64,000 bases of DNA from Nemertoderma westbladi (lineage: Eukaryota > Animalia > Xenacoelomorpha): positions 67,433 through 131,432 of the forward strand of contig JAUCBJ010001802.1 of NCBI GenBank assembly GCA_032718475.1. Reading direction: 5' to 3'. Made by a program: the position numbers and the translations under genes. This document shows positions 9,745 to 64,000 of this stretch, one piece after another; position 1 is the stretch's first letter, and the number at the start of each line of letters is the position of its first letter. The notes under the pieces were generated by a model that ran no database searches, was not told where the DNA came from, and saw only the letters and a program-made list of their open reading frames with translations.

Positions 9745-9851
9745 CTAAAATTTAGGAAAAATAATGTACAACAGGCGCCTGTATATTAAAACATTATTAT
9801 TATTGTTGTATACAAAATAAGTTAATTGCGACACAAAGTATGGTTTGGAAT

Positions 9852-11381
9852 GGTGTTCCCCCTGAGGTCTTTAAAATACCTGAGTGTTTAAAGCTCATCT
9901 ATCCCATCATAGTAGACATGTACCGAACAACAAGAGTCCCACAAGAAATGAAAACAAATAAGTTGGTGCCAGTTCCCAAGAAGGGCAACCTAACACTCTA
10001 TGGTTCTTTTCGGGGAATCTCATTGATCTCGATTGCTGCAAAGCTATACAATAGGATTCTATTAAATCGCATCAGGGATCCCATTGAGAGACTGCTCCGT
10101 GGAAATCAGAATGGGTTCCGTAAAGGTCGTGGTACCATGGAGCCCATTCTGGCACTTAGAAGGATAATTGAAGAATTATCAAAAAAGAAAGACAGGCATC
10201 TGGCTGTTATCTTTGTTGACTTCTTCAAGGCCTTTGATTCAGTCTCTCGCTCACGTATGTTCTGTTCAGCATACTTTCATTATATGGGATTCCTGATGAA
10301 ATTATTGCAGCAATAAGATCAGTATACGATGGTTCGACAACATTTGTGTCTACTGTTGACGGTGACACAGAACCATTTGAAGTGTTATGGGGCGTCCTCC
10401 AAGGAGACACACTTGCACCATTCTTGTTCATTATTGTGGTTGACTATGTTCTACGCATGTCCTTAGATCATCATAATGATGATGGGGTGATGATAACTCC
10501 ACCTACTGGCTCCAGAAGTCGAGGAAATCCTGCCAAGTACCTAACTGATCTAGACTTTGCTGATGACTTAGGAGTACTCTCAGAATCACTAGAGGGAGCC
10601 CAACGGCTCCTCAGCTCATTAGAACATGCTGCTTCTAGTGTTGGTCTTTTTATTAACTCCAGAAAGACCAAAATTTTGACAGTTAACTTTGAAAGTCCTC
10701 AGCAAGTCTCTGATCGGATGAGCATAAGCTCAAAGGATGGTATGCTTGAGCATGTGGACGACTTCTGTTACCTGGGATCATGGATCCGGAAGTCAGGTGA
10801 GGACCTTCGAATACGTAAGGGCAAGGCATGGGCAGCCTTGAATAGGCTTTCCAGGATTTGGAAGTCACCGAGAATTAATCGGAAACTTAAGGTCCGATTA
10901 TTTAGAGCAGCAGTAGTTCCAGTACTCCTCTACGGGAGTCCATGCTGGGCTCTAACTGCTGAGGACACCAAATCTCTGGATGGCACATTCACAAGAATGC
11001 TACGCCGGGTTCATTGTGTCAAGTACAATGCACACATCTCCAACCAGACACTATATAACATTGGAGGTGTCTCATTGGTTCCCCCAAGCTTGACACTAGA
11101 ACAAAATCGCCTCCGCTTTGCAGGACATTGCTTTCGCCGTGAGGACCAGCCAGTGCATAATCTTGTACTTTGGCAGCCTCATGGAGTGAATAAGCATGGT
11201 GGACAGCCCATGACTTTCTTGAGACGCATCTTAAAGGACACTGGCCTTGAAGATGCGGATGATCTAGCAAATGTCATGGGTGATAGGGAGTTGTGGCGGT
11301 GCAATTTTATTGACAAGCCGGCACAGCATTCTTAAAAATGCAGCTGCAATGCAGCATGCCGATCCTAGGTGTAGTAGTAGT
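9852..11381 (+). mobile_element. 5'-truncated RTE-clade non-LTR retrotransposon (RT domain, one frameshift)
   Basis: PVPKKGNL..FRGISL, NQNGFRKGR, FVDFFKAFDSV, GVLQGDTLAPFLF, LDFADD, YLGS motifs; (GTA)n tail; TSD AGTATGGTTTGGAAT at 9837-9851 and 11382-11396. Confidence 0.93.
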
Positions 11382-11555: not shown

Positions 11556-13942
11556 TGTAAAAGCTTTTGTGGGATATAACTGGCCCTTTTGCTTCGCAAT
11601 CCAGTTTCCCTCAATGCGCTCAAATACTCTAAAGAAAAACTCCCTAACTCAAATGATGCAAGCTACCGGCTGATTGGCTGATTTGCTGTACGTATGGCCT
11701 CTTTGTTCTGTTCGATCAACCAACCAGAGCAAGGTCAACCAAGCAGAGTGATTCATCCTGTGTGTTGGCTAAGGGCTGCAAAAATCCGAATAGTTCGGCA
11801 TTTAGACATTCGTGGAATCTGTGGAATATGGAACTCTGCCAATGAGAGCTTTTCCTCTTTGTGTTGAAAGCTTGCAACAGCTCACAGGGTTCAGTGTGTT
11901 GGTTTTCCTGATGCCATGAACATCAGCTATGGAATTATTCTGTTTTATTCCAACATTAGAACGGCTTTAATTATGAGAACACATAACTGTTACCGGTACG
12001 GTACGGTACGGTACGGTACGGTACGGTACGGTACGGTACGGTACGGTACGGTACGGTACGGTACGGTACGGTACGGTACGGTACGGTACGGTACGGTACG
12101 GTACGGTACGGTACGGTACGGTACGGTACGGTACGGTACGGTACGGTACGGTACGGTACGGTACGGTACGGTACGGTACGGTACGGTACGGTACGGTACG
12201 GTACGGTACGGTACGGTACGGTACGGTACGGTACGGTACGGTACGGTACGGTACGGTACGGTACGGTACGGTACGGTACGGTACGGTACGGTACGGTACG
12301 GTACGGTACGGTACGGTACGGTACGGTACGGTACGGTACGGTACGGTACGGTACGGTACGGTACGGTACGGTACGGTACGGTACGGTACGGTACGGTACG
12401 GTACGGTACGGTACGGTACGGTACGGTACGGTACGGTACGGTACGGTACGGTACGGTACGGTACGGTACGGTACGGTACGGTACGGTACGGTACGGTACG
12501 GTACGGTACGGTACGGTACGGTACGGTACGGTACGGTACGGTACGGTACGGTACGGTACGGTACGGTACGGTACGGTACGGTACGGTACGGTACGGTACG
12601 GTACGGTTCGGTACGGTACGGTACGGTACGGTACGGTACGGTACGGTACGGTACGGTACGGTACGGTACGGTACGGTACGGTACGGTACGGTACGGTACG
12701 GTACGGTACGGTACGGTACGGTACGGTAAGGTACGGTACGGTACGGTACGGTACGGTACGGTACGGTACGGTACGGTACGGTACGGTACGGTACGGTACG
12801 GTACGGTACGGTACGGTACGGTACGGTACGGTACGGTACGGTACGGTACGGTACGGTACGGTACGGTACGGTACGGTACGGTACGGTACGGTACGGTACG
12901 GTACGGTACGGTACGGTACGGTACGGTACGGTACGGTACGGTACGGTACGGTACGGTACGGTACGGTACGGTACGGTACGGTACGGTACGGTACGGTACG
13001 GTACGGTACGGTACGGTACGGTACGGTACGGTACGGTACGGTACGGTACGGTACGGTACGGTACGGTACGGTACGGTACGGTACGGTACGGTACGGTACG
13101 GTACGGTACGGTACGGTACGGTACGGTACGGTACGGTACGGTACGGTACGGTACGGTACGGTACGGTACGGTTCGGTACGGTACGGTACGGTACGGTACG
13201 GTACGGTTCGGTACGGTACGGTACGGTACGGTACGGTACGGTACCTACTGCTGTATTGCACATTATTTACTGCTATTTACTGTTTGTTATTAATTGTATC
13301 AGTTGTTTACATATTGTTATTTGGAGAATAACGATAAATGATCAGAAACCCTGATCTTCTTGATACACTAAGGTTAGAGAGACCGGTTACATATAGCAAT
13401 TGCGACTTATATTATCGTGGTTTGTAGTGAATTGAATGCTATTTTATAGGCCCTACAAATGTCGGTTGCTATTCTCTTTATATATGATTAAAATCAGTGA
13501 CTATCGGCAATTCAGTGTGCAGCGGTGTGCAATAGTCTGTATGTGCTTGTCCGCGTAACAAAGCATCTCCTAAAGAATGCGCCTTATGTGTAACTTATAA
13601 TCCATTCCGTTGTGTTTAGTGTAAGCCATAGCTCTGTTTATATAGATAGAGCGCCACGTCCTAAAGGAACTGCTAATATTTCCCGAAAGTGAATGATATT
13701 TGTCAGGAATTATATTAACGATCAATCGAATAGTACGGTAGGCCTGCACCGCAATCAAATTAAAGCATCCGAATCCAGTCTCCCGGGTATATCCAGCGGG
13801 TGAATGGTCGCGCATAGACTGGCTTCGGCTAATGTTGGATTTATTTGTGTCAAATACTTGTCATAGGCTAAAGTCGATTTATAACCTAGAAGACATATAG
13901 ATTTGGCGGGTTAAACTGCCAAAGGTCTTAAAAGCGCGAACA
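11556..13942 (+). repeat. 5' LTR of element A (2387 bp, enlarged by microsatellite)
   Basis: Matches 22929-24093 except for roughly ten small differences and the GTACG array. Confidence 0.95.
11994..13244. repeat. (GTACG)n pentanucleotide microsatellite, ~250 units
   Basis: Near-perfect array with four single-base interruptions. Confidence 0.99.
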
Positions 13943-13953
13943 GTAACAGTTAT
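13943..13953 (+). promoter_or_regulatory. Non-tRNA primer-binding site of element A, complementary to its own LTR
   Basis: GTAACAGTTAT is the exact reverse complement of ATAACTGTTAC at 11983-11993 (and 23359-23369). Confidence 0.75.
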
Positions 13954-14292
13954 TAATTCTGATTGCAGTGTAGGCAATAAATACAGTTTACTATTGTTCT
14001 GGTAAGAACAATAACAGTTATTGCTTCTTTATTGCCGTAAGCAATAAAGCTGAAGTACCGGTCGACCGGTAACCTGTAGGCCTAACTACCTAACCACCGG
14101 AACCGGTACTTACAGCAGTATACTGGTATAGGTACATCAGTATTATTTCGATTGTGATATATTGTATATTGTAGGCTGTTAGGGGATTAGGGATTGATCA
14201 CCCCTTATTCCTTTGCATGGTTTACTTATTTCTGTCAGTTTTATTTACTAGTAGGCTAATATTGAGCAGAAGACGTGTAAGCCTGCTCAGAT

Positions 14293-14866
14293 CGTACAGA
14301 TAATTTGTAGGCTGGGCTGTTGTCTGACTGTTGATAGGTCTGAACGGATTGCAGTGCATGTAGAGTGTATGTCCGATAAAGTGCCGGTTAGGAACGTAGG
14401 GGCAGCTAGAGCTGTAAGGTAACCCCCCCCCCCCCCCCCCCGAAAGAATAAGTCGTACTACTAGGTTAGAACGCATACTAACTAACCATTTCGGAGTCTG
14501 CATGTCCTGTAGTTTATTTAGGCTTGATAGTAGTCTGCCAGCGTTTGGTCTGTACTTTGTTTGTGTAGTCTGTACAGGTACCGTAATATTTCTTATTCAG
14601 ATAATTTATAGGCTAGATTGTTGTCTGGCTGTTGTTAGGTCTGAAGAGATTGTGGTGTGTGTAGAGTGTATGTCCGATAAAGTGCCGGTTAGGAAAGTAG
14701 GGGCATCTAGAGCTGTAAGGTAAATCCCCCCCCGAAAGAATAAGTCGTACTACTCGGTTAGAACGCATACTAACTAACCATTTCGGAGTCTGCACATACT
14801 GTAGTTTATTTAGGCTTGATAGTAGTCTGCCAGCGTTTGGTTTGTATTTTGTTTGAGTAGTTTGTA
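14293..14866 (+). ncRNA. Two tandem ~290-nt rod-like structured RNA domains in the leader of element A
   Basis: Arms pair over ~65 bp with many G-U pairs; compensatory changes versus the element B copies. Confidence 0.65.
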
Positions 14867-16223
14867 CGGGTAGCGTAATATTTATTATTCAGAGTTTATG
14901 CGATTATTCGCAACATTCATAACCCCAAGTTTATTCCCACAGTAATTGTGCTTGTTATACATACCGTTATAGTTAAATTAACCCCGGTACTACATAAGGG
15001 CTGCTTGGCGTAGGTAAAGACTGGTGATTTTGTGCCCCGGTCACTCCAGCAGATGCCGTGGTTCCTTTAGCTGTACAAGTATTTCTAACTGCTAGTTATT
15101 TGTTGTACAAGTACTTGTACCTAATTTAGGGTTTAGTGTACAGTGCTTTCCGAAGGTAATTAGTGTGTAGGCAGTATATTTGTGTTGTAAAGTGGTTAAT
15201 AGGCATGTTGGCTCTGGTAGGCCGCGGTAATTAACTTCCAGGTAGGGACACTCCGTGATACATAACGTAGTACTTATAGCGATACGGCTATAAGTCGTCA
15301 GACGGTGGTATTTTTCCTATCTGGACAACGCAATATATTTACTACTGGTTTATTATTTTCAAATACCGTAATATCCTGTCTGTTGTAATAACCAGATTTT
15401 CTAACCCTTTGTTAGGCTGTTTTGTAGATTCCCTGTAAAATTACCCTAAAAATTCATATTTGTAATTTTTGTGTTTATTTAGAGATGGTAATCTCACCCC
15501 GAATTGTACGTAATTTGTAGTATTAAGTAACTTAGGTAAATTAGAATTATTTGTTTTAGTGTCCAACAAGTAGCACTTCACTGAGAGCGCACAGCTTCTG
15601 TGTAGTGACTCCTCCCCAGAAATAATAACATTTATTTCAAATATTGACAAAACCCATTAAAACGGGTATATATATTATAAATCAACTCAAACGATTTATA
15701 AATAGTAGGCCTGCCATACAACAACTAGGTCTCAATATCAGTTGGACTACTGCTCAAATAACGGTAATAAAGTAAGTTAAAGTAACCAAGTAACCCCTAA
15801 AATTCAGAAATACAATTATTCTAAAATAATTGACATACCGGTATTTACAATAGGCTTATTATATTTATTTCTATAAATTTAGGCTGCAATTATACCGGTA
15901 TTCTGTAATTAATTCTAGTTCATAATTATACTTATATATACTATAAGTGTAAGCTGTATACCGGTATTCACGATAGGCCTATTATATATTTATATATATT
16001 TGTGCTAAAATTATATACCGGTATTCTGTGACAAACATAGTCTGTAATAATACTTATATATATATATACTATAAGTATACCGGTATTCTGATACATTGTA
16101 TATATATCACGTTACACTGAGTAACGGTATCGGTAATTAATTACTAGGCTAACAGTTGATACTGAATTACTAGACTTTCTTTAACTGTAATATAGCAGTA
16201 GGCATTCAACTGTACAATCAAAT

Positions 16224-18559
16224 ATGTCTGGCACAAAACGGGCACTGTCAGATAGTCTTTTGGAAGGTGTTAGAATGAGTCTTCGACTTGGACAGCGTCT
16301 TGAAAGGATGGAAGACAGAAAAGCAGCAGCAGTGGCAGCGGCAGAAGCGGAAAGAAAAGCGGCAGAGGCGGTGGCAGAAGCAGAACGGAAGGCGTCTGAA
16401 GCGACTGCCCAACTAGAGCTGGAGAGCCTTCGGGCGAGACAGGGATTTGCCTCCTCCGATGAAGGTGATATAAGAGATCCCGAAAGTAGAGGTAATAAAT
16501 CTCGTTCAAGCAGGCGTAGAAGAATGCCACACTGTCCGAAGTTACCTAATTTGCCTCCTGCGGTGAGACTAGCTAGCACAGACTTAGGTAGTACAGAACC
16601 CACAGACCAAATTATTACAGTAGAAAGACTCCCTACTATAGTAGATGAGCCTGAAATAATTAGGCCTGTTCTCGAAGCCACCCCTTCGGTGATAGAGACA
16701 CCTGTACTCCCAGGACCTACCTCTAAATTCCCTTTGCACAGCACAAAACTACCTGTGCCCAGTAGGACTGTTCCCGAGTCCGAACCCATCCTGGACGCCG
16801 AGCGAGATATCAAGAATTTATCGCCCGTCGTCTCTCGCTTGCCCGCTACTACGTTGGCGACTCCCGCTTCGGCGGTCGAGTGGGTAGCTGAGGGACGACG
16901 GGAGATGGGTCTCCTGCTCGGGCAGCTGAGGGAACATTGTAAATGTTCCTCCCAGCAGGTCCGGGAGTTGGAAGGGACTGTTCAGCAGTTAAAGGGAGCA
17001 GTAAGAGAGGGTAGGTTAGCATTGCAAGAAGTGCAGCAGAATATCGCGTCAGAATGCGATAAGTTAGTAAATTTACAAAAGGGTATACCACCACCCTCTG
17101 TAACAATGTGTCAACCTGTTAGGTCTGAAGTATTTCATGCGCAAGGTGTGGAGCCTACACGCATATATACTGCTAGTGAAGTAGAAACTCCTATAGTAAA
17201 CCCTATTAAGGGTAATTATAAACCTGTTGACAGTGATATTCCATATAGACTTGATAATAATCCGAGAAATTTATATACCGATAACTCGATATTAAATAAT
17301 ACGATGGCCCAAGAAAGTTTTACGCGTCAAATGGCTAGAACCGAAGCCCGTCAAGCGGTAAAGATGGGAGAGATCGTCAAGTTCAATGGAGATGAGATGA
17401 AATGGTTACCTTTTAATGAATATTACAAAGATAACATACAGAACTCTGTGTTATCTAACGGAGAAAAGCTTAGATTCCTCATCGAGTGCTTGGAAGGATC
17501 TCCCAAGTTAATGGCGTTAAAGTTTATTGGACATCCAGATGGATTAAGACAAGTTTGGGATACATTAAACATCAGGTATGGTAATAGGAATAACATAGCT
17601 AGGTATTTGTATGCAAAATTAATGGCGCCCCGAAAGTTTCTTAGCAGCGGGATAATAGAGTTTTCCGATGAGATTCAAGAGATCTGTAGACAATTAGATT
17701 GGTTAGGTAAGTCTCGTGAATACCAGAATTCTATGGTTGTAGGAGCCTTAGCATCAACTCTGCCAAAGGGTGGAGTAGGTACACGCTGGGACAAGAAAGT
17801 GTTATATATGATGGAACAACAACGACGAGACCCTACCATGGCTGATCTCATGTCATTCTTGGATGGAGAGGTAAAATTACAGCTCCTAAAGCAGTCCCGA
17901 GAGAAGACCCTGGAGAACAAGGTGAGTGAAAAACCCGTTTCTAGGAGAAAAATAATACCAGTGTGTTATACCGACGAGGGCGAAAGCCAGGCTTCTCAAG
18001 AAGAAGACAGCGGGAAAGACACTGAAAGATCTTACTATGACAATAAAACCCTAAAGGACGTAAGTAAATTCAAGTCTCGAACCAATGACAGGAGAGAACA
18101 GGTAAGAAAAACTCCTCCTACGTCTCCTAAGAGAATTAATGTAAGAAATCCCGAGGAAAGAACGAGCGTGCACCACACAGCACATGTTAAAGTAAGTAAC
18201 ATCAAGCCCAAATGTGTGTTGTGCGACGGGCCCACCGTTTAAATGTGTGTAATGAATTCCTAAAGAAATCATTAAAGGATAAACGTGAAGTCATGTGGGA
18301 TAAGCGGTTGTGTTATAATTGTCTCAGACGAGGACACCAACGGCGAACCTGTTACTCCGACGCAAGGTGTGCGAAGTGCGGCGCGAAACATCATATTTTG
18401 TTGCACACCGAATTCGAAAGAAACAGCCCGAGTCAGGTAAGTGAGTCCGAACTACATGTCCAATTCAGTGATGTGAACGACACTGACCAAAGTTCTGAGA
18501 TGGAAGGATTCTATACTATACGGACGAATTCTCAGACGAAAACGAATCCTGTTACTTAA
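16224..18559 (+). pseudogene. Bel/Pao gag of element A (frameshift near 18230)
   Basis: Coiled-coil N-terminus; KFNGDEMKWLPF..LSNGEKLRFLIECLEG (DUF1759-like); CVLCDG-AHRLNVC, CYNCLRRGHQRRTC, CAKCGAKHHILLH knuckles. Confidence 0.9.
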
Positions 18560-18570
18560 TAAATACCGCA

Positions 18571-19648
18571 GTGTATCGAGCACTTACGTATGAGAAGGAA
18601 ACCGACAGTGAGCTCCCCCTAACTACTTCTGATCGACAACCATCTTGGAAAGCGCCAACTTCCAATGTAGGAATCCGAGAATTTCCTGTAGTACAGTTAA
18701 GGGTCCACGGACCTAAAAGGAGTTATATAGTGAACGCCCTCCTTGACTCCGGTAGCACAGGAACATTCATCGACAAAGAACTAGCCGAAGACATCTTTGC
18801 TGGACAACCCAAGTTCCGAACTAAGCTAAACATGTCAGGAATTATGCAGGTTTGGAAATCTACCGTAATAGCGGATTATTATGTAGGCGCGTTGTCCACC
18901 CCCCAGGATGAACTAGGAGAACACAGCATAAGGTCAGTAAAAATGGTAAAAATGGTAGCACTTGGCTACCAGCCAAGTGGAACCTTATAACTGGGATGAG
19001 GACGATTTCACCCAGCAGCTTGAAATACCTAGATTCAACACCGATTACCCTGGAGTCCAAATACTAATCGGTCAAAATGCGCATGAAGCGCTCGAGACAT
19101 TGGAGAAACGGCCTGCTCAACCGCAACCACTACAAGCCTATGCGGGAAGAACTAGAGTGGGTTGGTACTTTACTGGCCCTTCCCGTAGAACTCTCATGGA
19201 AAGATTACCGAAAGATCAGGTATATCAAGTAAGAGAATGGGAAGATGAGAGCAGTGAGTTAGACGATCCAACTAAGGGAAGACCATACTCCTCAGATAAT
19301 GACGACATCAACTCCAATGTAGATCAATGGAGACATTGCCCCGAGACGATTAATCTAGCCGACATTGCCTCCAGTGGAGCAACTCCTCAAGAACTGACAG
19401 ATACTCCAGACTGGTTAGGTGAACCCGACTTCCTAAGTAAAGAAGATGAATGGCCTCCCCACCTTAACCCGGCTGAGATTAGACAGGCCAAGGGAGCAGA
19501 GAAAGTAACACAACCACTCAATCGCCCAGCTGGTCGTTTATGTTTACTGGAAAGAGACCGAAAACTGTCCGGAAACTATGGAAGGCAAGATACTCTTCCC
19601 ACGATCACCTCCCTAATCCAACAAATATCTAGGGACTCCATAACGTAA
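18571..19648 (+). pseudogene. Pao aspartic protease plus fused remnants of the pol C-terminus
   Basis: VNALLDSGSTGTFI; ILIGQN..RTRVGWYFTGP; QWRHCPETINLADIASSG..WLGEPDFL (end of RNase H region); RPAGRLCLLE (integrase tail); no RT or DDE core between them. Confidence 0.85.
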
Positions 19649-21305
19649 CAACATACGGAGTGGGTGTGTGACTATATTATTTTATATTTATTTTATTATT
19701 TTATATTATGTATGTATTATTATGTAATTTTATTATAATCGTTTTCTTTAATTTTATTTAGTCAAATGTTATTTAGCGATTATTTAGTAGATTAGTGCAA
19801 TATATTAGTGTTTATTACTTAATTACTTATATATTATATTTAGTGCGACGGCGAGAAATAATTCTTTTTCTCTTTCCTTACTGTCCGTATCATATTATAA
19901 ATACAATATTATTTTTTATTATTATATATACAATATAAATAAATATAAAATTATGTAAGATGAAATATCCGTACTTATTAAAGTACAATAAAGCTCCTAC
20001 TATATTCAAGTATTATTGGTAGGCAGAGTATTAGGAATGCAAAGTTCAGATCCTCGTGTCTCGGCTAAACCAAGCTCTGGGTAGACCTTGGAAACGACTT
20101 GCCTCTTCTCACTGACATTGCTTCGTGCGATATTGCTCTCATACCGTATATTGAATAATACATATAGTAGCGTGATGTCCCTTTAACAGTAGCGTAAAAC
20201 GCAAAATAAATCTGTTAAACCCTTTGACCATCTGCAATTCTAGTCGATTAAGATATCGCGGCACCCACCGATATACTTGAAAGACAAAATTCTAGAATCA
20301 GTGGTTAACGTCCCCAGACAAGTTCTGGAATAAACTGGTGCCCATCCTAAATATTAATTATTAATATTTACAAAATCTGTCAAATTTCAGATCCTTTAAA
20401 ATTCTAGTCGATTAAGATATCGTAGCACTTACCGATACTCTTAAAAGGACAAATCCCTAGAATCAAGGATCCCAGTCCCCAGACTTGTTCTGGAATAAAA
20501 TTGTGTCTATTTAATATTAAATAATAAAATTACGGGAATAAATTTAAATTCATCTTTTAATGAATTTGATAAATTGTTATTTTATACAATTTATAATATT
20601 CCCAAAATTCCATTAATTAATAGATCATGGGAGCGGAGATTCACCTATTAAGTGTATTAGTGTGCGAGAATCTCCAATATAGAGTCAATAGCCGATAAAA
20701 TTCATAAAATCATATATAAAGATGATATTGACCATTAAAGACTTACTATTAAATAGCATCCCAGATCTGTATGCATGGGAATTACCCTAATTCTACCGCT
20801 AGCTTTCCATAATGTCACCATAGCAACAACCACGCTAGAATTAGAAGCGAGTTAACAGAACAATAAAAAGCTTGCTCATTGAATAGCATACGGAATAAAT
20901 AACACACCGCTAGTATCCAAGGATACATAATAACAACGTGACATTCTGGAAGGCACTTGACTAACGGACAAATGACCCGAATGTGTGATAGAATGTGTAC
21001 CATTTGTGACAGTTACGTGGAATTTGTGCGTTTGTAGATGAATGTTACTACTAAGGTGTGTTTACAGTAGCGAGTCGCAATTGTGAAAGTAGCCCTAACT
21101 CTCCAGTAAGAACCTGAAGTATATCTAAGCCTTTGGGACGGACGGTGGAGTGACTCGTGCTGGTTGTTGTAGTCGTTGTGCAGCTACGACGTTGGCGATA
21201 GGCACATCGGCGAAAGTACACCAGCGCTGAGGATCTCGCACTGTCCGGGGGCAGAGAGGGGTAGGCAGCGACGCCCGCTCGCCTAAATATAAACTCATTA
21301 TAATA

Positions 21306-22850
21306 TGGATAAACTTATATAGCAGATATGATTGAGTTGATAGAAGATGATCTTGGTATCAGGGAGCGATATACTCTACCTTTACAAGCGTTTGTTGATA
21401 GCTTGATACGCGGCGACGCTGGTCCAACTACTACGGAGGACGATGGTCGTTATATCGAACCGCCAATGTCCCAGGAACAACTTACGCGTGAATTGGACTA
21501 TAGAAAATTCACCGCTCGCTATACGCATCGTAATGGTACGTATATGGACTTCTTAACTACTGGTCATCCTATCGACCTACACGATACGAACGATATAGAC
21601 ACCGAAAGGGAAATGGTTTTATTTAAATATCATACCCAGCGGAAGCGGAACGATAAACTGAGATTCGAACACGAAAATTCTATTCGAAACCGACTCGAAA
21701 GTGAAGATGTTGAAGAGCCGGATAAACGCAGCGACTTCAACAGAATATCTGGAATTCTTGAGAGAAACATATCTCAATATTACCAGTCAACAGAATCTAG
21801 AAACTCGATATCTTCAAGGTATACATCATGACCGCATGGTAGAACTCAAACGGCTCTATTCCACTATGATGTATCTTACCGCTGATCGACCGCTACCTGT
21901 TGCACCGGATAGCTTCGAACAGATGGAGGAATATTGTAAACTGGAGAAAGATCACTCGCGTTTCCCCTACAAGACGTGCGTCTTTGGTATTATTGCGATG
22001 AATGCCCTAGACCCAACCAACAAACGGAAAGACCTAAACATCCGCGGAGACGTTGCATTAAACACGGTTTTACTCGCTATATTTACGGGAGTTTCGAGCG
22101 AAACTTGTTCGATGTATCACCTACGCTCGCTCGATTCAAACGATCCTTAAATAAACCTATGATCCGAGTTCCGGAATACTCGATCAGACCTCCTCACTCC
22201 CTAGTGAGAACCCAGACTCTTGATCCTAATAGTATCATGGATCCTCCCGAGCTGTACTCACTGTTCAAAGATCTAGTGCTACCCGAACAGTTAGTCGGTG
22301 GCACTCTGATTGTGGGCTCCCTAAATATTCGCCCATCTTACCTAGTCGGATTGGGACGCGGACATCTAATATCGTCATTCAACCGTATCATCGTCCCTGT
22401 TTAACCCGATACAACCTGTCACTGAGGCGGAGGAGAGAGTTGTACGAGACGCGTTGGACACTATTCGTCAAAAGATCGGAAAATGAACCTACAATTGTTT
22501 AGAGAAACGTAAATTGCGGCAGCAAGTCCAAGCGGTAAACGAATTAACTTTATCTCAGTTCGATCAAGAAATCCAGAATCTCTAAGAAGATATCGAACTT
22601 GGACGACCCTATTCTCTGCGAGAGTTTTTGGATGAACGTATCCAGCTACGAGCGGAGGAAAATCAGCTCGAGGAGAACATATCGAAACGGCGGATACCCC
22701 GACCATAATCCTACACCTTCTGATGCAATCATATTGCACCCTTCACCCAGGAGTTATAGCCCTCCTAGTAAAGTGGCTCCCCCCAAAGAGAAAAGGACTC
22801 TTGCTAGCTTTAAAAAACTGCGTAAACGCCGTCCACGCAAGAAAGACTAA
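21306..22850 (+). pseudogene. Decayed ~500-aa accessory ORF of unknown function inside element A
   Basis: Overlapping + ORFs 21328-21831, 21701-22150, 21976-22404, then a coiled-coil-like frame with two stops and a basic C-terminus (KKLRKRRPRKKD). Confidence 0.55.
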
Positions 22851-22928
22851 CTGTTTAGAGTATTTTTATATTTTAGAAACTGTGATTTTTTATATTTTAT
22901 AGAATTAAATCCCATTTTCTGGGAGCGG

Positions 22929-24093
22929 TGTAAAAGCTTTTGTGGGATATAACTGGCCCTTTTGCTTCGCAATCCAGTTTCCCTCAATGCGCTCAAATAC
23001 TCTAAAGAAAAACTCCCTAACTCAAATGATGCAAGCTACCGGCTGATTGGCTGATTTGCTGTACGTATGGCCTCTTTGTTCTGTTCGATCAACCAACCAG
23101 AGCAAGGTCAACCAAGCAGAGTGATTCATCCTGTGTGTTGGCTAAGGGCTGCAAAAATCCGAATAGTTCGGCATTTAGACATTCGTGGAATCTGTGGAAT
23201 ATGGAACTCTGCCAATGAGAGCTTTTCCTCTTTGTGTTGAAAGCTACCTGCAACAGCTCACAGGGTTCAGTGTGTTGGTTTTCCTGATGCCATGAACATC
23301 GGCTATGGAATTATTCTGTTTTATTCCAACATTAGAACGGCTTTAATTATAAGAACACATAACTGTTACCGGCACGGTACGGTACGGTACGGTACCTACT
23401 GCTGTATGGCACATTATTTACTGCTATTTACTGTTTGTTATTAATTGTATCAGTTGTTTACATATTGTTATTTGGAGAATAACGATAAACGATCAGAAAC
23501 CCCGATCTTCTTGATACACTAAGGTTAGAGAGACCGGTTACATATAGCAATTGCGACTTATATTATCGTGGTTTGTAGTGAATTGAATGCTATTTTATAG
23601 GCCCTACAAATGTCGGTTGCTATTCTCTTTATATATGATTAAAATCAGTGACTATCGGCAATTCAGTGTGCAGCGGTGTGCAATAGTCTGTATGTGCTTG
23701 TCCGCGTAACAAAGCATCTCCTAAAGAATGCGCCTTATGTGTAACTTATAATCCATTCCGTTGTGTTTAGTGTAAGCCATAGCTCTGTTTATGTAGATAG
23801 AGCGCCACGTCCTAAAGGAACTGCTAATATTTCCCGAAAGTGAATGATATTTGTCAGGAATTATATTAACGATCAATCGAATAGTACGGTAGGCCTGCAC
23901 CGCAATCAAATTAAAGCATCCGAATCCAGTCTCCCGGGTATATCCAGCGGGTGAATGGTCGCGCATAGACTGGCTTCGGCTAATGTTGGATTTATTTGTG
24001 TCAAATACTTGTCATAGGCTAAAGTCGATTTATAACCTAGAAGACATATAGATTTGGCGGGTTAAACTGCCAAAGGTCTTAAAGGCGCGAACA
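22929..24093 (+). repeat. 3' LTR of element A (1165 bp)
   Basis: TGTAAAAGC..GCGCGAACA followed by TSD AACAG. Confidence 0.95.
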
Positions 24094-55545: not shown

Positions 55546-58500
55546 TTTGCTATTCTCATAAATTAGAAAACAGGAATATAATGTAGATTAATTTATTGTA
55601 TTTCTTATTAAAGTTTAATTGTGGTATTGCATTGTCCATTTATTCGTAACACATACAATAAGTATTAATCAACAAAGGCTTGGCTACACATTGTATATGT
55701 ATGGCACAACCGCCGTATCTACAGTATGATTTTCTTTTAGATTATATAACTAAATAAAATAAAATTATAAAATAAGTTTCGACAAAACAAATATGTTTCG
55801 CTATGGTTTATTTATCATGAGCTCTTTTTCTTAATTTCAAAATCAATAATTTATTTATTAAAGTAACAATTTACGTTCTGGAACAAATATAGATCTGAGT
55901 TCCCCAGATAAAGGACGAAATATTTGAAAAAGAAATCTTCCTCCGTTTCCTTGATTTTAATCCGATTAAGCTGAAATTTGGCATATAATCTATGTAGGCC
56001 TTACTAGAACTACTGTAGCTACTGTAGTGTTTTTTAACAAGCTAGTATTTTTGGCATTTAGTGTGGCTTGGGGCCCCATTTTTGGAAAATTTATGGCATC
56101 ATATTTTGTTGTTAATTTGAATGTACAGGTATAATATCAAGAAGACTTATTCTAGACCATTGTAAATACAAAAAAATACAAAAACATATATGTATATATA
56201 TGTTAAATATGTATGAAATAAATAAATATATAATGTATATACAATAATATATATATTAATATTTAATTATTATTATTATTATTTTTCATTATTTATATTT
56301 TTTCATTATTTATATTTTTTTATTATTTCTATGATATAATACTAAAAAACATATATGTAAATATATGTTAAATATGTATGAAATAAATAAATATATATTG
56401 TATATACAATAATATATATATTTATATTTAATTATTATTATTATTTTTATTTATTATTTATATTTTTTTATTATTTATATAATACAGTATAATACAAAAA
56501 CATATATCTATACACCATGTCCCGTAATATATTGTCATTTTCTGATGAAACGGACCCCCCCTAAGATTTTTCTACAAATCTTTATCATATTGCTTGAAAT
56601 TTGAAATACAACTAGTTCGACTCACCGTCGATGACCCCATGAAGCCGGAATGAATTTTCGATTTTGAAATTTCGTTTTAAAAAAGTGTCTTTTGCGAAAT
56701 CGCACCCTCTGTATCGTAACCATTCTCCACATTAGTCGTATTTTTGTCATATCATTAGAAAGCTTGCGTTGCAAGGATTCCAAATATGTAACAATATCTG
56801 AATTTCGTTGAGAAACAGCTGAGATATAAGCGTTCAAAGATCGCAAGAATTATTGTTCGCTGAAGGTCATTTATTCTATTAAATAAATACACGATGTTCT
56901 GGAACATTTTGTTTAAGTATGAATAGCTACGCAATAGAGATATTGGATAGAAATACCGCTGTTGCCAACCATCTTATAAAATAAACAACACATTCTAGAA
57001 TTTTGTGTATTTATTTAATATAATAATGGGGTAGACGACTCGGAAAATTTTTTTCGAGTTTTCGTTGGTTTCATGTGAAAGAGCATGTGAAAAAACCCCA
57101 GAGAGCAATTTTACTTCAAAAGAATTAATATTGGCTGAGTTATAGTGATTTTAAAACGCAAAATTAGCAACATCGAAAAATCAGGCCGTTTCAGAAAACT
57201 GCACTAGTGACGTCACTAGTGCAGCAGTAAATGTTCATTGGTTACTATACAATATAAATCTCTTAGTAACTAAAATAAATTGTGTAGCTAATATTTATTT
57301 AGTGTGTTTTTGTGTTGTGTTAAGAATACATTATTTGATATCTTAATGTGGAAATTGATTCATGACAAGTTAATTATTCCAGAATAATAATTATTTTTCC
57401 CAAACTATACAGTTGTTAGCTATAAAAATAAAACATATTTTGTAGCTAAAACTGCCAGGTGGTAGGAACCCAGTAGCTTATTGATGTTTTATTCAGCTTC
57501 AAAGCTTAGATTATGTAAAAGCTTTTGCGTAATTAGCCGGTTATTTTCCCTTAAAGTACTCTGTAGTTGGTTTGCCAGGCATAAAAAGGCCGTGTCCTTG
57601 CTGTACTGGTGTTTTAGAGGACATAAAAGTCATTTCTTATGTATTTGTACTGTATTTGTACTTTAGAGGACATAATCCACAATCTCGTGACGCAATAGCT
57701 GGATACTTTGAAACAGTGTCGCTACCATGACGACGGCTAGCAGCTGATATTGCCACGTCGACGTTTCTTTGTTTCTTTGTTCTCTCGTTGTTCAGGTTGA
57801 CCAATCAGAGCGTTTGTTGTCTCTGTGTTGGAGGTATATACAGAAACTCAGTAGTTCAGTGTTATGTTTTTGCCCAGAGCCTAAGAACCGGCTTTTGGCA
57901 CCTCCGTGTTTTCAGTTTTTAGTTTTACACTAGTAGGTTTAATTATAAGGACATATATCCTTTAACGCACCTGACTTTTAATCGCTGCTAACTGATCATA
58001 CATCCTGACTGCTGAAACATTGCAAACTCATAACAATCAGTGTTCAGTTGTTGTTTTATACTGCTATTTACTGTCAGTTCTTCATAATATGGTTGATGAA
58101 TTATTATATTGGAATAACGAGAAATAACCCCGAAAACCCAATATTCTTGATATACCGAAGGTAAGAGAGAAAGGTTACCAATAACGATTGTGACTTATGT
58201 TAAAGTGGTTTGAAGTGAATCTAATGTTATTTGATAGACCCTACATGAGTCAGTCTGTGTTCCTTTTATATGTGACTAAAATCAGTGAAGATTGGCAGAT
58301 TAGTGTGCAGTATTGTGCAGCATTGTGTATGAGTGAGTCTGTTAAAGAAGCAATTCCTAAAGAATGCGCCATATATGTGAATTATAATTAAGCCATATCG
58401 TTGTGAGTAGTTTAAGTCATAACTCTGTTTATATAGATAAAGCGCCACGTCCTAAAGGAACTGTTAATATTCCCCGAAGGTGAATAATATTGTCAGAGAT

Positions 58501-58724
58501 TATATAATACTGTCAGTCGAATAATACATTAGGCTTACATAGCAATAAAATTAAACCGTCGAACCCAATCTCCCGGGAATATCCAGCGGGTGAATGATCG
58601 CGCACAGATTGGTTTCGACTAGTGTAGTGAATCAAATATTTGTCATAGGCTAAAAAGCGATTTAATATCTAGAAGACATCCTAATTTGGCGGGTTAAACT
58701 GCCAAAGGTCTGAAAGCGCGAACA

Positions 58725-58736
58725 TTAAAGGATATA
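58725..58736 (+). promoter_or_regulatory. Non-tRNA primer-binding site of element B, complementary to its own LTR
   Basis: TTAAAGGATATA is the exact reverse complement of TATATCCTTTAA at 57954-57965. Confidence 0.75.
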
Positions 58737-59009
58737 GCTTCTTTATTGCGGTAAGCAATAAAGTTGAAAGTACCGGTCAACCGGTAAACCTGAACGGTCC
58801 ATCTGTAGGTCCGTAGGCCTAACTGTCCTAACCGGTACTTCCGTATAAGTACAGCAGTATTATTCGATTTGATTATATATGCCGGTAGGTCTTAATAATT
58901 AATCGGGGACGCCTGGTTTTTATTGGGATTTTTACTTAGGCCTATTTCTGTCAGTTTTATTTGTTTGTAGGCCAGTATTGAACAGAAGGCGTGTAAACCT
59001 GATCAGATT

Positions 59010-59568
59010 GTACAGACGATTTGTAGGCTGAGCTGTTGTCTGATTGCTGTTAAGTCCGAACGAATTGCAGTGTGTGTAGATCACCTGTCCGATTAAGTAC
59101 GGTTAGGAAGTAGGGGCAGCGAACGCTGTAAGGTAAACCCCCAACTAAAGAATAAGTCGCACTACTGGGTTAGAGCGCATACTCCCTAATCATTTCGGAG
59201 TCTGCATGTCCTGTAGTTTATTTAGGCTTGAGAGTAGTCTGCCATCGTTTAGTCTGTACTTTGTTTGTGTAAGTCTGTACGGGTAGCGTATAATATTTAT
59301 TTAGATAATTTTGAGGCTGGATAGTTGTCTGGCTGTTATTAGGTCTGAACGGATTGCAGCGTGTGTAGATCACTTGTCTGATTAAGTACGGTTAGGAAGT
59401 AGGGGCAGCGAACGCTGTAAGGTAAACCCCCAACAAAAGAATAAGTCGCACTACTGGGTTAGAGCGCATACTCCCTAATCATTTCGGAGTCTGCATATAC
59501 CGTAGTTTGTTTAGGCTTGATAGTAGTCTGTCAGTGTTCGGTCTGTATTTTGTTTGAGTAGTTTGTAC
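59010..59568 (+). ncRNA. Two tandem rod-like structured RNA domains in the leader of element B
   Basis: Same fold as 14293-14866 with compensatory substitutions. Confidence 0.65.
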
Positions 59569-60900
59569 GCGTAGCGTAATATTTATTATTCAGAGTTTAT
59601 GCGATTATCCGCAACATTCATTCCCCAAGTTTGTTCCTACAGTAATTGTGTTTGTTATACATACCGCTATAGTTAAATTAACCCCGGTACTACACGGGCT
59701 GCTCGGCGTAGGTAAAGACTGGTGATTTTGTGCATCGGTCACTCCAGCAGATGCCGTGGTTCTTTTAGCTGTTCAAGTATATTTAACTACTGATTATCTG
59801 TTGTACAAGTACTCGTACCTAATTTAGGGTTTAGTGTACAGTACTTTCCGAAGTAATTAGTGTAGGCATTATATTGGTGTTGTAAAGTGGTTGATAGGCA
59901 CATTCGATTAGCTCTATTAACTTCTAGGTAGGAACACTCCGTGATACATAACGTAGAACCTATAGCGATACGGCTATAGGTCGTCAGGCGGTGGTATTTT
60001 CCTATCTGGACAACGCAGTGTATTTACTACTACTTATTATTTCAAATACCGTAGTACCCTGTCCGTTGTAATAACCAGAATTCTAACCCTTTGTTAGGCT
60101 GGTTTGTAGACTTCTTGTAAAAATACCCTAAAAATTTCGTATTTTGTGTTTTTGTAAATTTTTGTGTTTATTTAGAGATTGTAATCTCACCCGAATTGTA
60201 CGTAATTTGTAGTATTAAGTAACTTAGGTAAATTAGAATCATTTGTTTTAGTGTCCTGTACGTAACACTTCACTGAAAGCGTACCGCTTTGTGTAGTGAT
60301 TACCCCAGAAATAATAACATTTATTTCAAAAATTGACTAAACCCATTAAAACGGGTATATATATATTATAAATCAAATCTAACGATTTATAAATAGTAAG
60401 CCTACCATATAACAATTAGGTCTCAATATCAGTTGGACTACTGCTTAAATAACGGTAATAAAGTAAGTTAAAGTAACCAAGTAACCCTAAAGTTCAGAAA
60501 TTCAATTATTCTAAAATAATTGATATACCGGTATTTACGATAGGCCTATTATCTTTATTTCTGTAAATTTTAGGCTTCCATTATACCGGTACTTGTAATT
60601 AATTCTAGTTCAGAATTATATATCCTACAAACTGTAAGCTGTATACCGGTATTCCAGATAGGCCTATTATATATTTATATATATTTGTGCTAAAATTATA
60701 CCGGTATTCGGTGATAAAACTAGTCTGTAATAATAGTTATCTATACTATAAGTATACCGGTATTCTAATATATTATATATATATCACGCTACACTGAGTA
60801 GCAGTACCGGTAATTAATTACTAGGCTAGCAGTTAATACTGAGTTACTAGACTTACTCAGACTGTAATACAGCAGTAGACATTCAACGGTATACATAGTC

Positions 60901-63900
60901 ATGTCTGATACTAAGCAGAACCTGTCAGACAGTATATTAGATGTAACTATCTGCGACTCAGATAGAGACGTACAACCGTCTGGTCGTAAATCCAGTTCAC
61001 CTCCCACTGTGAGGAAGGTCATCCCTCCAGTAGTAATAACAGAACCTAGGCTAGTCCAACATCGTAGGTCTATCATAGGCACCCGAGCTCAAGTCAAGCG
61101 GGACCAACAAGCAGCGGAACAGCAACAACCCGCTAGTCAAGAATTTATTCCTCAGCGGCCCAGCAGCTCCAGTAGTGAGGATACTGTAGAGCTGACACCC
61201 GAGCGCGGAACAGAGATGACGGATGCGGTTTATACGGATCCCCTTCTCATCCTTCCTGCAGTCATGCTCGCTGGGTTATTGATCGCGGTGGAAGAACACC
61301 AGATCGATTGGGCGAGAAGTCAACGGTCAACTAGAGATAGTTACGCGGGATACACGAGTGAAGAACTGAAGTCTATTGTCGAGTCGCAATGGAACTTCCC
61401 CGGACCCGGACTCCCGTTTGATTTATCAGAAGCTGCCTGGGAAGACATACACCGGATGGGAGTAGCCAAGGAGACCATCGATCCAGCTGTATGGAAGAGG
61501 TCCGCAGCCGGATACGCCCAGGGATTCTTCAGCTCTATGGAGCGAGTAGAGAGACAACTGTTTCAACAACCTCAAGGACCTCAAGAGCAGGGATCGCTGC
61601 TTTATCAAGTTAGAGAAAGAGTTCTGCGAATTAGGCTAATCTTATCCGCCTTTGAAGAGGCTTCTAAAAGAAGACAAGACACATCGTTGCAAGTTGCCGT
61701 AAAAACTTGGTTTCAACGGGTGAGTCGCCAGGTTCAAGGAGCAGCTCGGTGGAAAGCTCAGTTGGAGGAGCGCTCAACCCATGGAGAATCGACGGACGCT
61801 ACTTTTTCCCAAGTGGAAAGTGAAGCGACGGCAGAGAAACCGCATAAGAAGGATGCCATTGATATCTATCTGTCAGACTATCAGCGTTTTTTGGGAGATG
61901 AAGAGTTGAGAAGAAGGCTAGAGGGACTTAGCCCTAATAGCGAAGGAGCCAAACTCGAGTTAGATGCGATTGATGTGGATAGGTTAGCGGCGAACCAAGC
62001 TAAATTCGATGAACAACTCCGCATCGCTAGAGAACAAGAAGAACAAGTAAAGAAAAAACGTATAGAAGATAGAAAGACAACGGCAGTGGCAGCAGCAGTG
62101 GCAGCGGCAGAAGCCGAAAGAAAAGCGGCACTGGCAATAGCAGAGGCAGCGGCAGAAACCGAAAGAAAAGCGGCACTGGCAATAGCAGAGGCAGTGGTAG
62201 AAGCAGAACGGAGGGCATCTGAAGAGACAACCCAACTAGAGCTGGAAAATCTTCAAGAGAGGCAAGACAACTTCAATAAACAGTTAACAGCGAGCAATAT
62301 GCAGATGATGAGTCGATCTACTCCCAAGAGACAGGGGTATACATCATCTGAGGAAGGCGATACCACCGTCGCTGAAGGCGGAGGAAATCGATCCCGCCTA
62401 AGCAGACGTAAAAGAACATTCCACCGTCAGAAATTGCCTGATTTGCCTCCAGCTGTTAGAAGGCAACTAAATAACACCAACTTAGAGAGTACAGAACCCA
62501 CAGACCAAATAATTACAATAGAAAGACTCCCTACTATAGTAGATGAGCCTGAAATAAGTAGGCCTGTTCTTGAAATCACCCCTTCGGTAATAGACACACC
62601 TGGGCTCCCTGAAACTACCTATAAATTCCCTCTGCATAGCACTAAGCTACCTGTGCCCCGTAAAACTGCCCAGGAGACAGTTCAGGTCCTGGACCCCGAG
62701 CGAAATATTCCAAATTTGTCGCCCGTTGTCCCTCGTCTGCCCGCTACGACGTTGGCGGATCCCGTTTTGGCGGTTGATTGGGTAGACGAGAGACGGCGGG
62801 GGATGGATATTCTCCTAGGAGAGATGAGGGAGAATCGGAAACGCTCTTCCCAACAGGTCCGAGAGTTGGAAGGGACTGTCCAACATTTAAAAGGAACGGT
62901 GAGCGAAAGTAGGTTAGAGTTGCAAGAAGTGCAGCAATGTATCGCGTTAGAACGCGATAGATTAGTAAATTTACAAAAGGGTATACCACCACCCCCTGTA
63001 ACAATGTGTCAACCCGTTAGGTCTGAAGTATCTCATGCGCAAGGTGTGGAGCCTACACGCATTTATACTGCTAGCGAAGTAGAAACTCCTATAGTGAACC
63101 CTATTAAGGGTAATCATAGACCTGTTGATAATGATATTCCCTATAGAACTGATCATAATCCGAGAAATTTATATACCGATAACTCGATATTAAATAGCAC
63201 GATGGCCCAAGAAAGTTTTACGCGTCAAATGGCTAGAACCGAAGCCCGGCAAGCGGTAAAGGTTGGAGAGATCGTCAAGTTCAATGGAGATGAGATGAAA
63301 TGGTTACCTTTTAATGAATATTACAAAGATAACATACAGAACTCTGTATGGGGCCGTCCAAGTATGACGTCAGCACTTTAGGGGGGGGAGGGGGGTTGGG
63401 AAAATCTGATGACGTGCTGATGAGGGGAGGGGAGGGGGTCAGCCAAAATCTGACGTCAGCATGGTAATTTATAGGTGCTAGAAGAGATATAGCAGAACAG
63501 TAAATAACTTGCCTATTTTAATTGTTCGAAGCCCCCGAAGACCCGAGGCACGACCTTCTGTTTCAGTTACCAGTCACCATCTTTCAGTGATTAGGACGAA
63601 AATTTTTTTTTAATCTGATTTAGGGGAGGGGGGTGGGTCAACGCCTATCTGATGACATCTGATTTAGGGGAGGGAGGGGGTCAACATTTTGGGGAAAAGT
63701 GCAGACGTCATACTTGGACGGCCCCTATTATCTAATGGAGAAAAACTTAGATACCTCATCGAGTGCTTGGAAGGATCTCCCAAGTTAATGGCGTTAAAGT
63801 TTAATGGACATCCAGACGGATTAAGACAAGTTTGGGATACACTAAACATCAGGTATGGTAATAGGAATAATATCGCTGGGTACTTGTATGCAAAGTTAGT

Positions 63901-64000
63901 AGCGCCCCGAAAGTTTATTAGTAGCGGAATTATTGAGTTTTCCGATGAGATCCAGGAGATCTGCAGACAATTAGACTGGCTAGGTAAGTCTCATGAGTAT
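60901..64000 (+). pseudogene. Bel/Pao gag of element B, interrupted by a MITE
   Basis: Open for ~816 codons up to the MITE; resumes LSNGEKLRYLIECLEG after 63728; near-identical to the A gag core. Confidence 0.9.
63350..63725. mobile_element. PIF/Harbinger-like MITE inserted in gag B
   Basis: TIR GGGGCCGTCCAAGTATGACGTC(A/T)GCACTTT; 3-bp TSD TAT; empty site visible in element A at ~17450. Confidence 0.88.

What the first reader, a model, noticed from the sequence alone, without database searches (positions are those of the whole stretch)
14293..14866. Tandem ~290-nt G-U-rich rod RNA domains with covariation in the Bel/Pao leader
Seen: four copies (two here, two at 59010-59568). Each pairs as GTAGGCTG(A/G)GC/GTTT(A/G)GTCTGT, GA(C/T)TG(C/T)T/AGTAGTC, TAGGTCTGAA/TTTAGGCTTG, (G/A)ATTGCAG/CTGTAGTT, TGTAGA/TCTGCA, TCCGA/TCGGA and GGTTAG/CTAA(C/T)C, topped by a junction with two hairpins. 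Compensatory changes: CGT..ACG (A) versus CGC..GCG (B); GCATGTAGA/TCTGCATGT versus GTGTGTAGA/TCTGCACAT; CAGC-GCTG stem kept while the loop changes. The pairing relies on G-U, so it works as plus-strand RNA and not as a DNA palindrome. Inference: an undescribed cis-acting RNA (packaging, export, IRES, small-RNA precursor or catalytic). I see no known ribozyme core in it.
Basis: partly seen in the sequence, partly recalled or inferred. Interest (0 to 1): 0.75.

Follow-up and report, generated by a model that had tools for sequence, protein, structure and literature searches.

The report
Wobble-paired RNA rods in retrotransposon leader
Two copies of a Bel/Pao jumping gene each carry, near the front of their RNA, a pair of 270-letter repeats predicted to fold into long rods held by G-U wobble pairs that the DNA cannot form, and these likely serve as the handle by which the element's coat protein picks its own RNA for packaging.

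Summary
Four ~290-nt units (two per element) lie between the 5' LTR and gag of two Bel/Pao-type elements. Each is predicted to fold into a 65-pair rod on the plus RNA only: 97 G-U against 2 A-C in 260 cells, and 27 of 29 transitions keep the pair (69% expected). Divergent copies in public contigs also keep it. Strict two-sided covariation is thin (3 of 102 pairs, not above shuffles), and the apical junction is well supported only in the B copies. No Rfam family or ribozyme matches.

New context: (1) the 2.2-kb leader is strongly AUG-depleted on the plus strand only, so it is likely a scanned 5' UTR rather than an intron; (2) the apex is homogenised within each element (96-98%) but differs between elements (82-84%); (3) both elements lack a tRNA primer site and show an 11-12-nt Tf1-like self-priming match with unrelated letters.

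Best reading: a packaging/dimer scaffold for Gag (0.4). Rivals: export or localisation, translation control, small-RNA precursor, neutral decay. No RNA data were available, so the function is untested.

The parts
11556..13942 (+). 5' LTR of element A (TG...CA), with a (CGGTA)n expansion at 11994-13244
   Evidence: 1129 of 1136 aligned bases identical to the 3' LTR outside the array; TSD AACAG on both sides
11983..11993 (+). Putative self-primer of A (predicted RNA 5' end), 5 nt behind a TTTAATTATRAG box shared with B
   Evidence: exact 11-nt complement of 13943-13953
13943..13953 (+). Primer-binding position of A; no tRNA-type TGG start, pairs with the element's own LTR
13943..16223 (+). AUG-depleted, structured leader of A
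   Evidence: 9 ATG against 39.4 +/- 4.7 in 300 shuffles; CAT 25 against 31.4; folds
14294..14566 (+). Rod unit A1 (arms about 14294-14366 and 14496-14566; apex 14367-14495)
14595..14858 (+). Rod unit A2 (apex 14668-14787)
16224..19648 (+). gag (DUF1759, three CCHC knuckles) and protease region of A, broken near 18240, 18520 and 18960; no RT or integrase seen
   Evidence: Pfam PF03564 E 1.4e-12; Asp_protease_2 E 0.003, below its cut-off; knuckles and DSG read by eye
21313..22850 (+). Extra 3' ORF of A, in several pieces, with a basic C-terminus; family unknown
22929..24093 (+). 3' LTR of element A
57514..58724 (+). 5' LTR of element B (5' part did not align with A's; 3' about 670 nt 77% alike)
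57954..57965 (+). Putative self-primer of B
   Evidence: exact 12-nt complement of 58725-58736; letters unrelated to A's (cross test 5-6 nt)
58725..60900 (+). AUG-depleted leader of B, beginning with the primer-binding position
   Evidence: 4 ATG against 32.2 +/- 4.3
59010..59270 (+). Rod unit B1 (apex 59083-59199)
59299..59559 (+). Rod unit B2 (apex 59372-59488)
60901..64000 (+). gag of B, interrupted near 63350-63727 by a MITE-like insert; runs off the window

Best explanation
Each of two Bel/Pao-type elements carries two tandem ~290-nt units 290-350 nt behind the primer site, each predicted to fold into a 65-pair G-U-rich rod with a branched cap, and these likely act as the packaging and dimerisation scaffold that the element's Gag recognises. 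Shown: the sequence, its position, the plus-strand-only complementarity, the pair-keeping substitutions, and the within-element homogenisation of the cap. Inferred: (1) selection acts on the RNA shape, not the letters; (2) wobble pairs keep the rod out of both DNA strands, so no inverted repeat exists to be deleted or silenced, and keep it weak enough for scanning ribosomes and RT to pass, which fits the AUG depletion across the leader; (3) the cap, with its single-stranded GGUAA, is the protein-binding module for Gag's zinc knuckles; (4) because any left arm can pair with any right arm, two genomes could swap arms and dimerise.
For: Rod census 97 G-U, 96 A-U, 60 G-C, 7 other (2 A-C) of 260 cells. 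27 of 29 transitions keep the pair against 69% expected, P 0.002, or 0.004-0.006 with CpG weighting. In public contigs, 19 of 22 listed variants at paired sites are compatible with a partner letter seen, 14 with B1's own partner. From 3 divergent loose ends, 14 of 15 paired changes pair with B1 and 15 of 15 with a seen partner; 7 are new. RNA+ -86/-87, RNA- -41/-40, DNA -14 to -19 kcal/mol. The rods fill 5 of the 7 most strand-asymmetric of 425 windows. The position between primer site and gag AUG is where retroviral packaging signals lie (recalled). The rods are kept in element A, which has 99.4% identical LTRs but no RT or integrase, so cis signals are what it must keep. Apex 96-98% alike within elements and 82-84% between, while arms follow unit position. 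Cross-register arm duplexes -50 to -73 against -62 to -68 kcal/mol in register. GGTAA 10 against 3.6 (0 of 300 shuffles) in A and 7 against 3.4 (6%) in B, one in each apex.
Against: Nothing here tests binding, packaging or dimerisation. Two-sided covariation is not above shuffles (3 of 102 pairs; 235 of 500). The structure was derived from the same four related sequences, so the transition test is partly circular and its events are not independent; 5 of 7 transversions break pairs. The cap fold differs in A1 and A2. No self-complementary loop is shared by the four copies. Apex homogenisation may be mechanical template switching that is tolerated because the cap is a closed module. GGUAA is also a splice-donor-like word, and its GG is only partly exposed (mean unpaired 0.34-0.42 against 0.20 for all GG). 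The rods are no more conserved in sequence than the rest of the leader (83-92% against 89-94%). The loss of RT and integrase in A may postdate its insertion.
Confidence: 0.4

Rival explanations
1. Nuclear export or subcellular localisation element (RRE/CTE/MTE-like, or a dsRNA-binding transport signal): the rod is a scaffold for an export or transport factor, possibly the product of the element's extra 3' ORF.
For: A long stem with a branched head resembles the RRE, a branched ~350-nt scaffold for Rev (PMC3342944, passages and section 4). The LTR retrotransposon musD has a transport element (PMC5767303, passages). Element A has an extra ORF ending in a basic tract. Tandem copies would raise the signal.
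Against: The RRE lies in env (abstract in the listing), not in the 5' leader. AUG depletion argues that this region is in a scanned UTR, not a retained intron. The extra ORF has no Rev-like match; its only lead is weak and points to tyrosine-recombinase-like domains (score 0.94, 122 of 256 features; fold pLDDT 47).
Confidence: 0.24
2. Translation element: the rods are an internal entry site or a shunt that lets ribosomes bypass the AUG-containing R-U5 and reach gag 1.35 kb downstream.
For: If the RNA starts at the self-primer, 10 ATGs lie in the LTR part ahead of the leader in each element. Depletion is strongest behind the rods (4 against 22.7; 2 against 18.5).
Against: ATG is also low before and inside the rods (A 1 against 5.7 and 4 against 8.8; B 1 against 3.8 and 1 against 8.0), which fits scanning through them. 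No short uORF is conserved just ahead of the rod. A second, downstream start site, as in Tf2 (PMC5341516, passages), would remove the need for internal entry.
Confidence: 0.14
3. Hairpin-RNA or pri-miRNA-like precursor: the rod is diced into small RNAs.
For: G:U hairpins can still drive RNAi while avoiding inverted-repeat DNA silencing (PMC9263138, abstract). Drosophila hpRNAs give 21-nt siRNAs (PMC12224907, passages). Uninterrupted paired runs reach 12-19.
Against: Cleavage would cut the element's own genome and gag mRNA. The longest Watson-Crick run is 3-4 pairs. The arms match nothing else in the window. A cap that evolves as a unit is not needed for dicing.
Confidence: 0.07
4. Neutral relic: an old inverted repeat decayed by ADAR editing or compositional bias, then duplicated.
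For: The leader is G+T rich on the plus strand. The rods are not more conserved in sequence than their flanks. Two-sided covariation is weak.
Against: Neutral decay gives G-U and A-C about equally, but 97 against 2 are seen. G-C/G-U flips are about as common as A-U/G-U flips. A followed by G, ADAR's preferred context (recalled), stays unedited in 46 of 96 A-U cells, while only 12 of 97 wobble Gs are followed by G. Contig variants show no A>G excess (X1: A>G 28, G>A 36, C>T 35, T>C 31).
Confidence: 0.07

Closest known systems
Retroviral packaging and dimer-linkage region (psi/DLS; recalled, no call)
   Same: Structured RNA between the primer site and the gag AUG, in an element whose Gag has CCHC knuckles; G-containing single-stranded words.
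   Different: Known signals are clusters of short hairpins, often with a palindromic kissing loop. Here each unit is a 65-pair wobble rod with a branched cap, in tandem, with no shared palindromic loop.
HIV-1 Rev response element (PMC3342944, passages and section 4)
   Same: About 300-350 nt, long stem with a branched head; could act as a scaffold.
   Different: The RRE lies in env, is single and has a known viral partner. These units lie in an AUG-depleted 5' leader, in tandem; no Rev-like protein was identified; no Rfam match.
musD transport element MTE (PMC5767303, passages)
   Same: Structured cis-acting RNA of an LTR retrotransposon.
   Different: [quoted passage not shown] Neither was shown here, and there is no sequence or Rfam likeness.
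G:U hairpin RNA design (PMC9263138, abstract) and Drosophila hpRNAs (PMC12224907, passages)
   Same: A hairpin that exists in RNA through wobble pairs while the DNA is not a perfect inverted repeat.
   Different: Those are siRNA sources with trans targets. Here the hairpin is inside a retrotransposon's own genome and carries a structured cap.
Tf1/sushi self-priming (PMC7175516, PMC4600332, PMC6317226, passages)
   Same: 11-12 nt right after the 5' LTR are exactly complementary to a segment of the element's own LTR; no tRNA site.
   Different: Described for Ty3/gypsy chromoviruses and proposed for some plant copia lineages. The ICTV profile gives tRNA-Arg or tRNA-Gly priming for Belpaoviridae (PMC8742986, whole text). 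Here primer and site are 735-771 nt apart.

Membership tests
Bel/Pao (Belpaoviridae) | LTRs with TG...CA ends and a target-site duplication | tested here: met
   11556-13942 and 22929-24093, TSD AACAG
Bel/Pao (Belpaoviridae) | Bel/Pao-type Gag (DUF1759, three CCHC knuckles; their use as a marker is recalled) | tested here: met
   PF03564 E 1.4e-12; knuckles read by eye; 176 distant relatives at about 21-37% identity; 6 of the 10 looked up carry names, all from animals where an organism is given
Bel/Pao (Belpaoviridae) | Pol with PR-RT-RH-INT order | tested here: not met
   Element A has a protease motif but no RT or integrase hit; B runs off the window. Filed as a Bel/Pao-derived defective or non-autonomous element, not as a full member.
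Bel/Pao (Belpaoviridae) | 18-nt PBS for tRNA-Arg or tRNA-Gly (PMC8742986) | tested here: not met
   Neither post-LTR sequence starts with TGG; both pair with their own LTR. Not compared with the host's tRNA set, which is not held.
Tf1-type self-priming | About 11-nt complement between the PBS and the element's own LTR | tested here: met
   11 nt in A, 12 in B, unrelated letters, same upstream box; 1 of 4396 other leader 11-mers has such a match
Tf1-type self-priming | RNA 5' end at the primer, and RNase H cleavage after base 11 | not testable with these tools
   no RNA reads
Known Rfam RNA families, including hammerhead, HDV, twister and SRP | Covariance-model match at the gathering score | tested here: not met
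   0 matches in the window; at E up to 10, none on the rods' plus strand; a CUGANGA word in only 1 of 4 copies, inside the stem
Retroviral psi/DLS | Position between PBS and gag AUG | tested here: met
   350 nt (A) and 285 nt (B) behind the LTR, about 1.35 kb before the AUG
Retroviral psi/DLS | Self-complementary kissing loop | tested here: not met
   no palindrome of 6 nt or more is shared in the apex loops; arm swapping is possible instead. Works like, not a member.
Retroviral psi/DLS | Specific Gag/NC binding and packaging | not testable with these tools
   needs bench work
RRE-like export elements | Long stem with a branched head | tested here: met
   prediction only; head uncertain in the A copies
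RRE-like export elements | Element-encoded arginine-rich partner | tested here: inconclusive
   the extra ORF has a basic tail but no family match
hpRNA/siRNA precursors | Phased small RNAs from the arms | not testable with these tools
   no RNA holder listed

The most novel reading that the evidence does not exclude
A self-priming Bel/Pao lineage has evolved a dedicated, wobble-coded tandem RNA rod that is invisible in DNA. Its cap co-evolves within each subfamily with an element-encoded protein (Gag or the extra 3' ORF product), giving subfamily-specific genome selection or Rev/RRE-like control, and arm swapping between genomes gives a dimerisation mode with no kissing loop.
Probability: 0.2. 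Interest if true: 0.78.

Novelty: new variant of a known kind. Interest (0 to 1): 0.55.

Why it matters
The ICTV profile calls Belpaoviridae replication poorly understood (PMC8742986, whole text), and my ten literature searches listed no cis-acting RNA structure for the family. A compact 270-nt module with natural variants makes Bel/Pao RNA selection directly testable in vitro. It would also be a natural case of a long hairpin written so that it exists only in the plus RNA, a design so far seen here only as an engineered plant RNAi tool (PMC9263138, abstract). The self-priming signature adds another genome to a pattern this scan has already noted elsewhere.

Tried and rejected
No genome is held for this window, so only four copies could be aligned; R-scape-level covariation and a useful covariance model were out of reach, and none was built. 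Rfam: nothing. ARAGORN: 0 genes. A 25-nt arm pattern in metagenome contigs: 0. Gag against metagenome contigs: 144 pattern hits, 0 confirmed. A 17-nt apex pattern in viral contigs: 6 loci, each matching only 19 nt, taken as chance. Word-index protein searches for Gag and the extra ORF: none at E up to 0.001; PDB sequences: 0. SRA: no RNA holder listed; X4 is only guessed to be RNA and all four runs are contigs, so they say nothing on expression, splicing or editing. Contig depth is no copy number; the 24576 contigs laid from X1 show only that many variants exist. Hammerhead core: rejected. ADAR origin: rejected. Leader as an intron: first considered because of GTAAG words in loops behind the LTR and a YAG before the gag AUG, then lowered by the AUG depletion, but not excluded. 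Even spacing of G-U pairs: significant in B1 and B2 (P 0.002, 0.016), not in A1 and A2 (0.20, 0.15), so only suggestive. Single-sequence fold of an extra-ORF piece: pLDDT 46.6, too low for a fold search. The first piece of the extra ORF got no Atlas answer. No supplements were read.

Full report
Setting. The window is repeat-rich eukaryotic DNA; no genome is held. Element A runs from 11556 to 24093, with LTRs at 11556-13942 and 22929-24093 and the 5-bp duplication AACAG on both sides. Outside a (CGGTA)n array the LTRs agree at 1129 of 1136 bases, so the insertion is likely young. Gag starts at 16224 and carries DUF1759 (E 1.4e-12). Three CCHC knuckles and a DSG protease motif are visible in the translation, which is broken near 18240, 18520 and 18960. 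No RT or integrase was found. An extra ORF in pieces lies at 21313-22850. Element B starts at 57514; its leader is about 81% like A's, and its gag runs off the window. The closest Gag relatives among 1.84 billion representatives are only about 21-37% identical, so this is a distinct Bel/Pao-type lineage.

The observation. Two tandem units of period 289-292 lie in each leader. RNAalifold gives a 65-pair rod closed by a branched cap. Plus-strand z-scores are -2.3 to -5.1 and minus-strand -0.4 to +1.8; rods of 59-63 pairs exceed all 60 shuffles in each case. With wider ends A1 drops to z -1.1, and the others stay at -3.3 to -4.2. In a wobble-aware scan of 425 windows the rods take 5 of the 7 largest strand asymmetries; the other two are tandem arrays. 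Of 260 rod cells, 97 are G-U, 96 A-U, 60 G-C and 7 other, only 2 of them A-C. The longest Watson-Crick run is 3-4 pairs. As RNA the plus strand folds at about -87 kcal/mol and the minus strand at about -40; either DNA strand folds at -14 to -19.

Is the shape under selection? Among the four copies, 27 of 29 transitions in the rod keep the pair against 69% expected (P 0.002; up to 0.006 with CpG weighting), while 2 of 7 transversions do. This test is partly circular and its events are not independent. Strict covariation is weak: 3 of 102 pairs change on both sides (235 of 500 shuffles reach that), and the covariation score is reached by 8 of 500, which the tool warns can happen without structure. 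Five pairs show two different Watson-Crick types, two of them with the G-U intermediate present in another copy. Further variants come from public contigs laid on B1 (40 of 44 rows shown). Of 22 at paired sites, 14 pair with B1's partner and 19 with a partner letter seen elsewhere; 3 do not. Many of these are the same alleles as in the four copies, and none is phased. Three divergent loose ends, chosen from 24 rows shown because they cover the arms and aligned by eye, give 15 paired changes: 14 pair with B1, all 15 with a seen partner, and 7 are new. I put the chance that the rod is a selected plus-strand RNA structure at about 0.9. The cap is less sure: the two-hairpin junction is the predicted fold in B1 and B2 only, and the CAGC/GCTG stem is broken in A2.

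Not an editing scar. G-C/G-U flips are about as common as A-U/G-U flips. A followed by G remains in 46 of 96 A-U cells, while 12 of 97 wobble Gs are followed by G (ADAR's context preference is recalled). Contig variants show no A>G excess.

What the surroundings add. First, ATG is the most depleted triplet in both leaders (9 against 39.4; 4 against 32.2; 0 of 300 shuffles as low) while CAT is not. The depletion is strongest behind the rods but present before and within them. The simplest reading is a scanned 5' UTR that contains the rods. Second, the apex is 96.1% and 97.6% alike within elements but 82-84% between them, whereas the arms group by unit position. The duplication therefore predates the A/B split, and the cap has since been homogenised in both lineages as a block. 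Third, neither element has a tRNA-type primer site. The first 11 (A) or 12 (B) bases after the LTR are exactly complementary to an LTR segment just behind a shared TTTAATTATRAG box; the two sequences are unrelated, and only 1 of 4396 other leader 11-mers has such a match. [quoted passage not shown] I found this before looking it up. The scan's notes report the same signature in Bel/Pao elements of other genomes, which agrees but is not independent support. If the RNA starts there, 10 ATGs precede the leader. A second start site, as in Tf2 (PMC5341516, passages), a shunt or internal entry would then be needed for Gag; this is unresolved.

Mechanism. The best reading (0.4) is a packaging and dimer scaffold. 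The rods sit where retroviral packaging signals sit (recalled). They are kept in a young element that lacks RT and integrase. Their cap behaves as a subfamily-specific module and presents a single-stranded GGUAA, a word enriched in leader A (10 against 3.6) and weakly in B (7 against 3.4, 6% of shuffles). Any left arm can pair with any right arm (-50 to -73 kcal/mol), which would allow genome dimers without a kissing loop; no shared palindromic loop exists. Wobble coding would keep the hairpin out of DNA and let ribosomes and RT pass; the DNA-side benefit is shown for engineered plant hairpins (PMC9263138, abstract). All functional steps are inferred. Rivals are export or localisation (0.24), translation entry or shunt (0.14), small-RNA precursor (0.07) and neutral relic (0.07). 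The rods are not more conserved in sequence than the downstream leader (83-92% against 89-94%), which fits selection on shape but gives no sequence-specific signal.

Comparison and novelty. No Rfam family matches. It is placed like psi/DLS and looks like an RRE-type scaffold (PMC3342944, passages and section 4; musD MTE in PMC5767303, passages), but it is a member of neither. Ten searches (listings, plus passages of PMC3118150, PMC6317226, PMC5443660, PMC3601003, PMC4600332 and PMC12224907) showed no Bel/Pao cis-acting RNA and no Bel/Pao self-priming. The library lacks most subscription papers, and no supplements were read. Structured leaders are a known kind in LTR elements; a tandem wobble rod with a homogenised cap is a new variant. 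Homologues outside the coded organisms A and B were not found, and no RNA data exist here. Interest 0.55.

Noticed in passing
window 11983-11993 / 13943-13953 and 57954-57965 / 58725-58736: Tf1-like self-priming signature in both elements, with unrelated letters and a shared TTTAATTATRAG box upstream.
   Followed up: yes
window 13943-16223 and 58725-60900: ATG is the most depleted and CTG the most enriched triplet on the plus strand of both leaders (z about -6 and +7); the CTG excess is unexplained.
   Followed up: partly
window 21313-22850: Extra 3' ORF in pieces with a Lys/Arg-rich end; one piece gives a weak Atlas lead to tyrosine-recombinase or telomere-resolvase-like domains (0.94, 122 of 256 features); fold not confident. 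The AT-rich stretch before it is also ATG-poor (19 against 32.4).
   Followed up: partly
window 11994-13244: (CGGTA)n array of about 250 copies in the 5' LTR against a few in the 3' LTR, starting right behind the putative self-primer.
   Followed up: no
window 14939-15345 and 59639-60043: Further branched plus-strand folds shared by both leaders behind the rods, one with an unpaired UAGGUAAAG.
   Followed up: partly
window 13992-14048 and 58738-58766; 16190-16197: Hairpins with GUAAG in the loop right after the primer site, and a pyrimidine tract with YAG about 30 nt before the gag AUG: possible splice donor and acceptor.
   Followed up: partly
window 13636-13700 and 58427-58490: A conserved LTR block (TATA-like word followed by GCGCCACGTCC) that may mark a second promoter.
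   Followed up: no
window 63350-63727: MITE-like insert with about 22-nt terminal inverted repeats interrupting gag of element B.
   Followed up: no
window 9765-11335: Non-LTR retrotransposon RT fragment (RVT_1, DUF6451) just ahead of element A.
   Followed up: no
window 15835-16088 and 20236-20531: Two further short tandem duplications (about 135 nt, 78% alike) inside element A.
   Followed up: no
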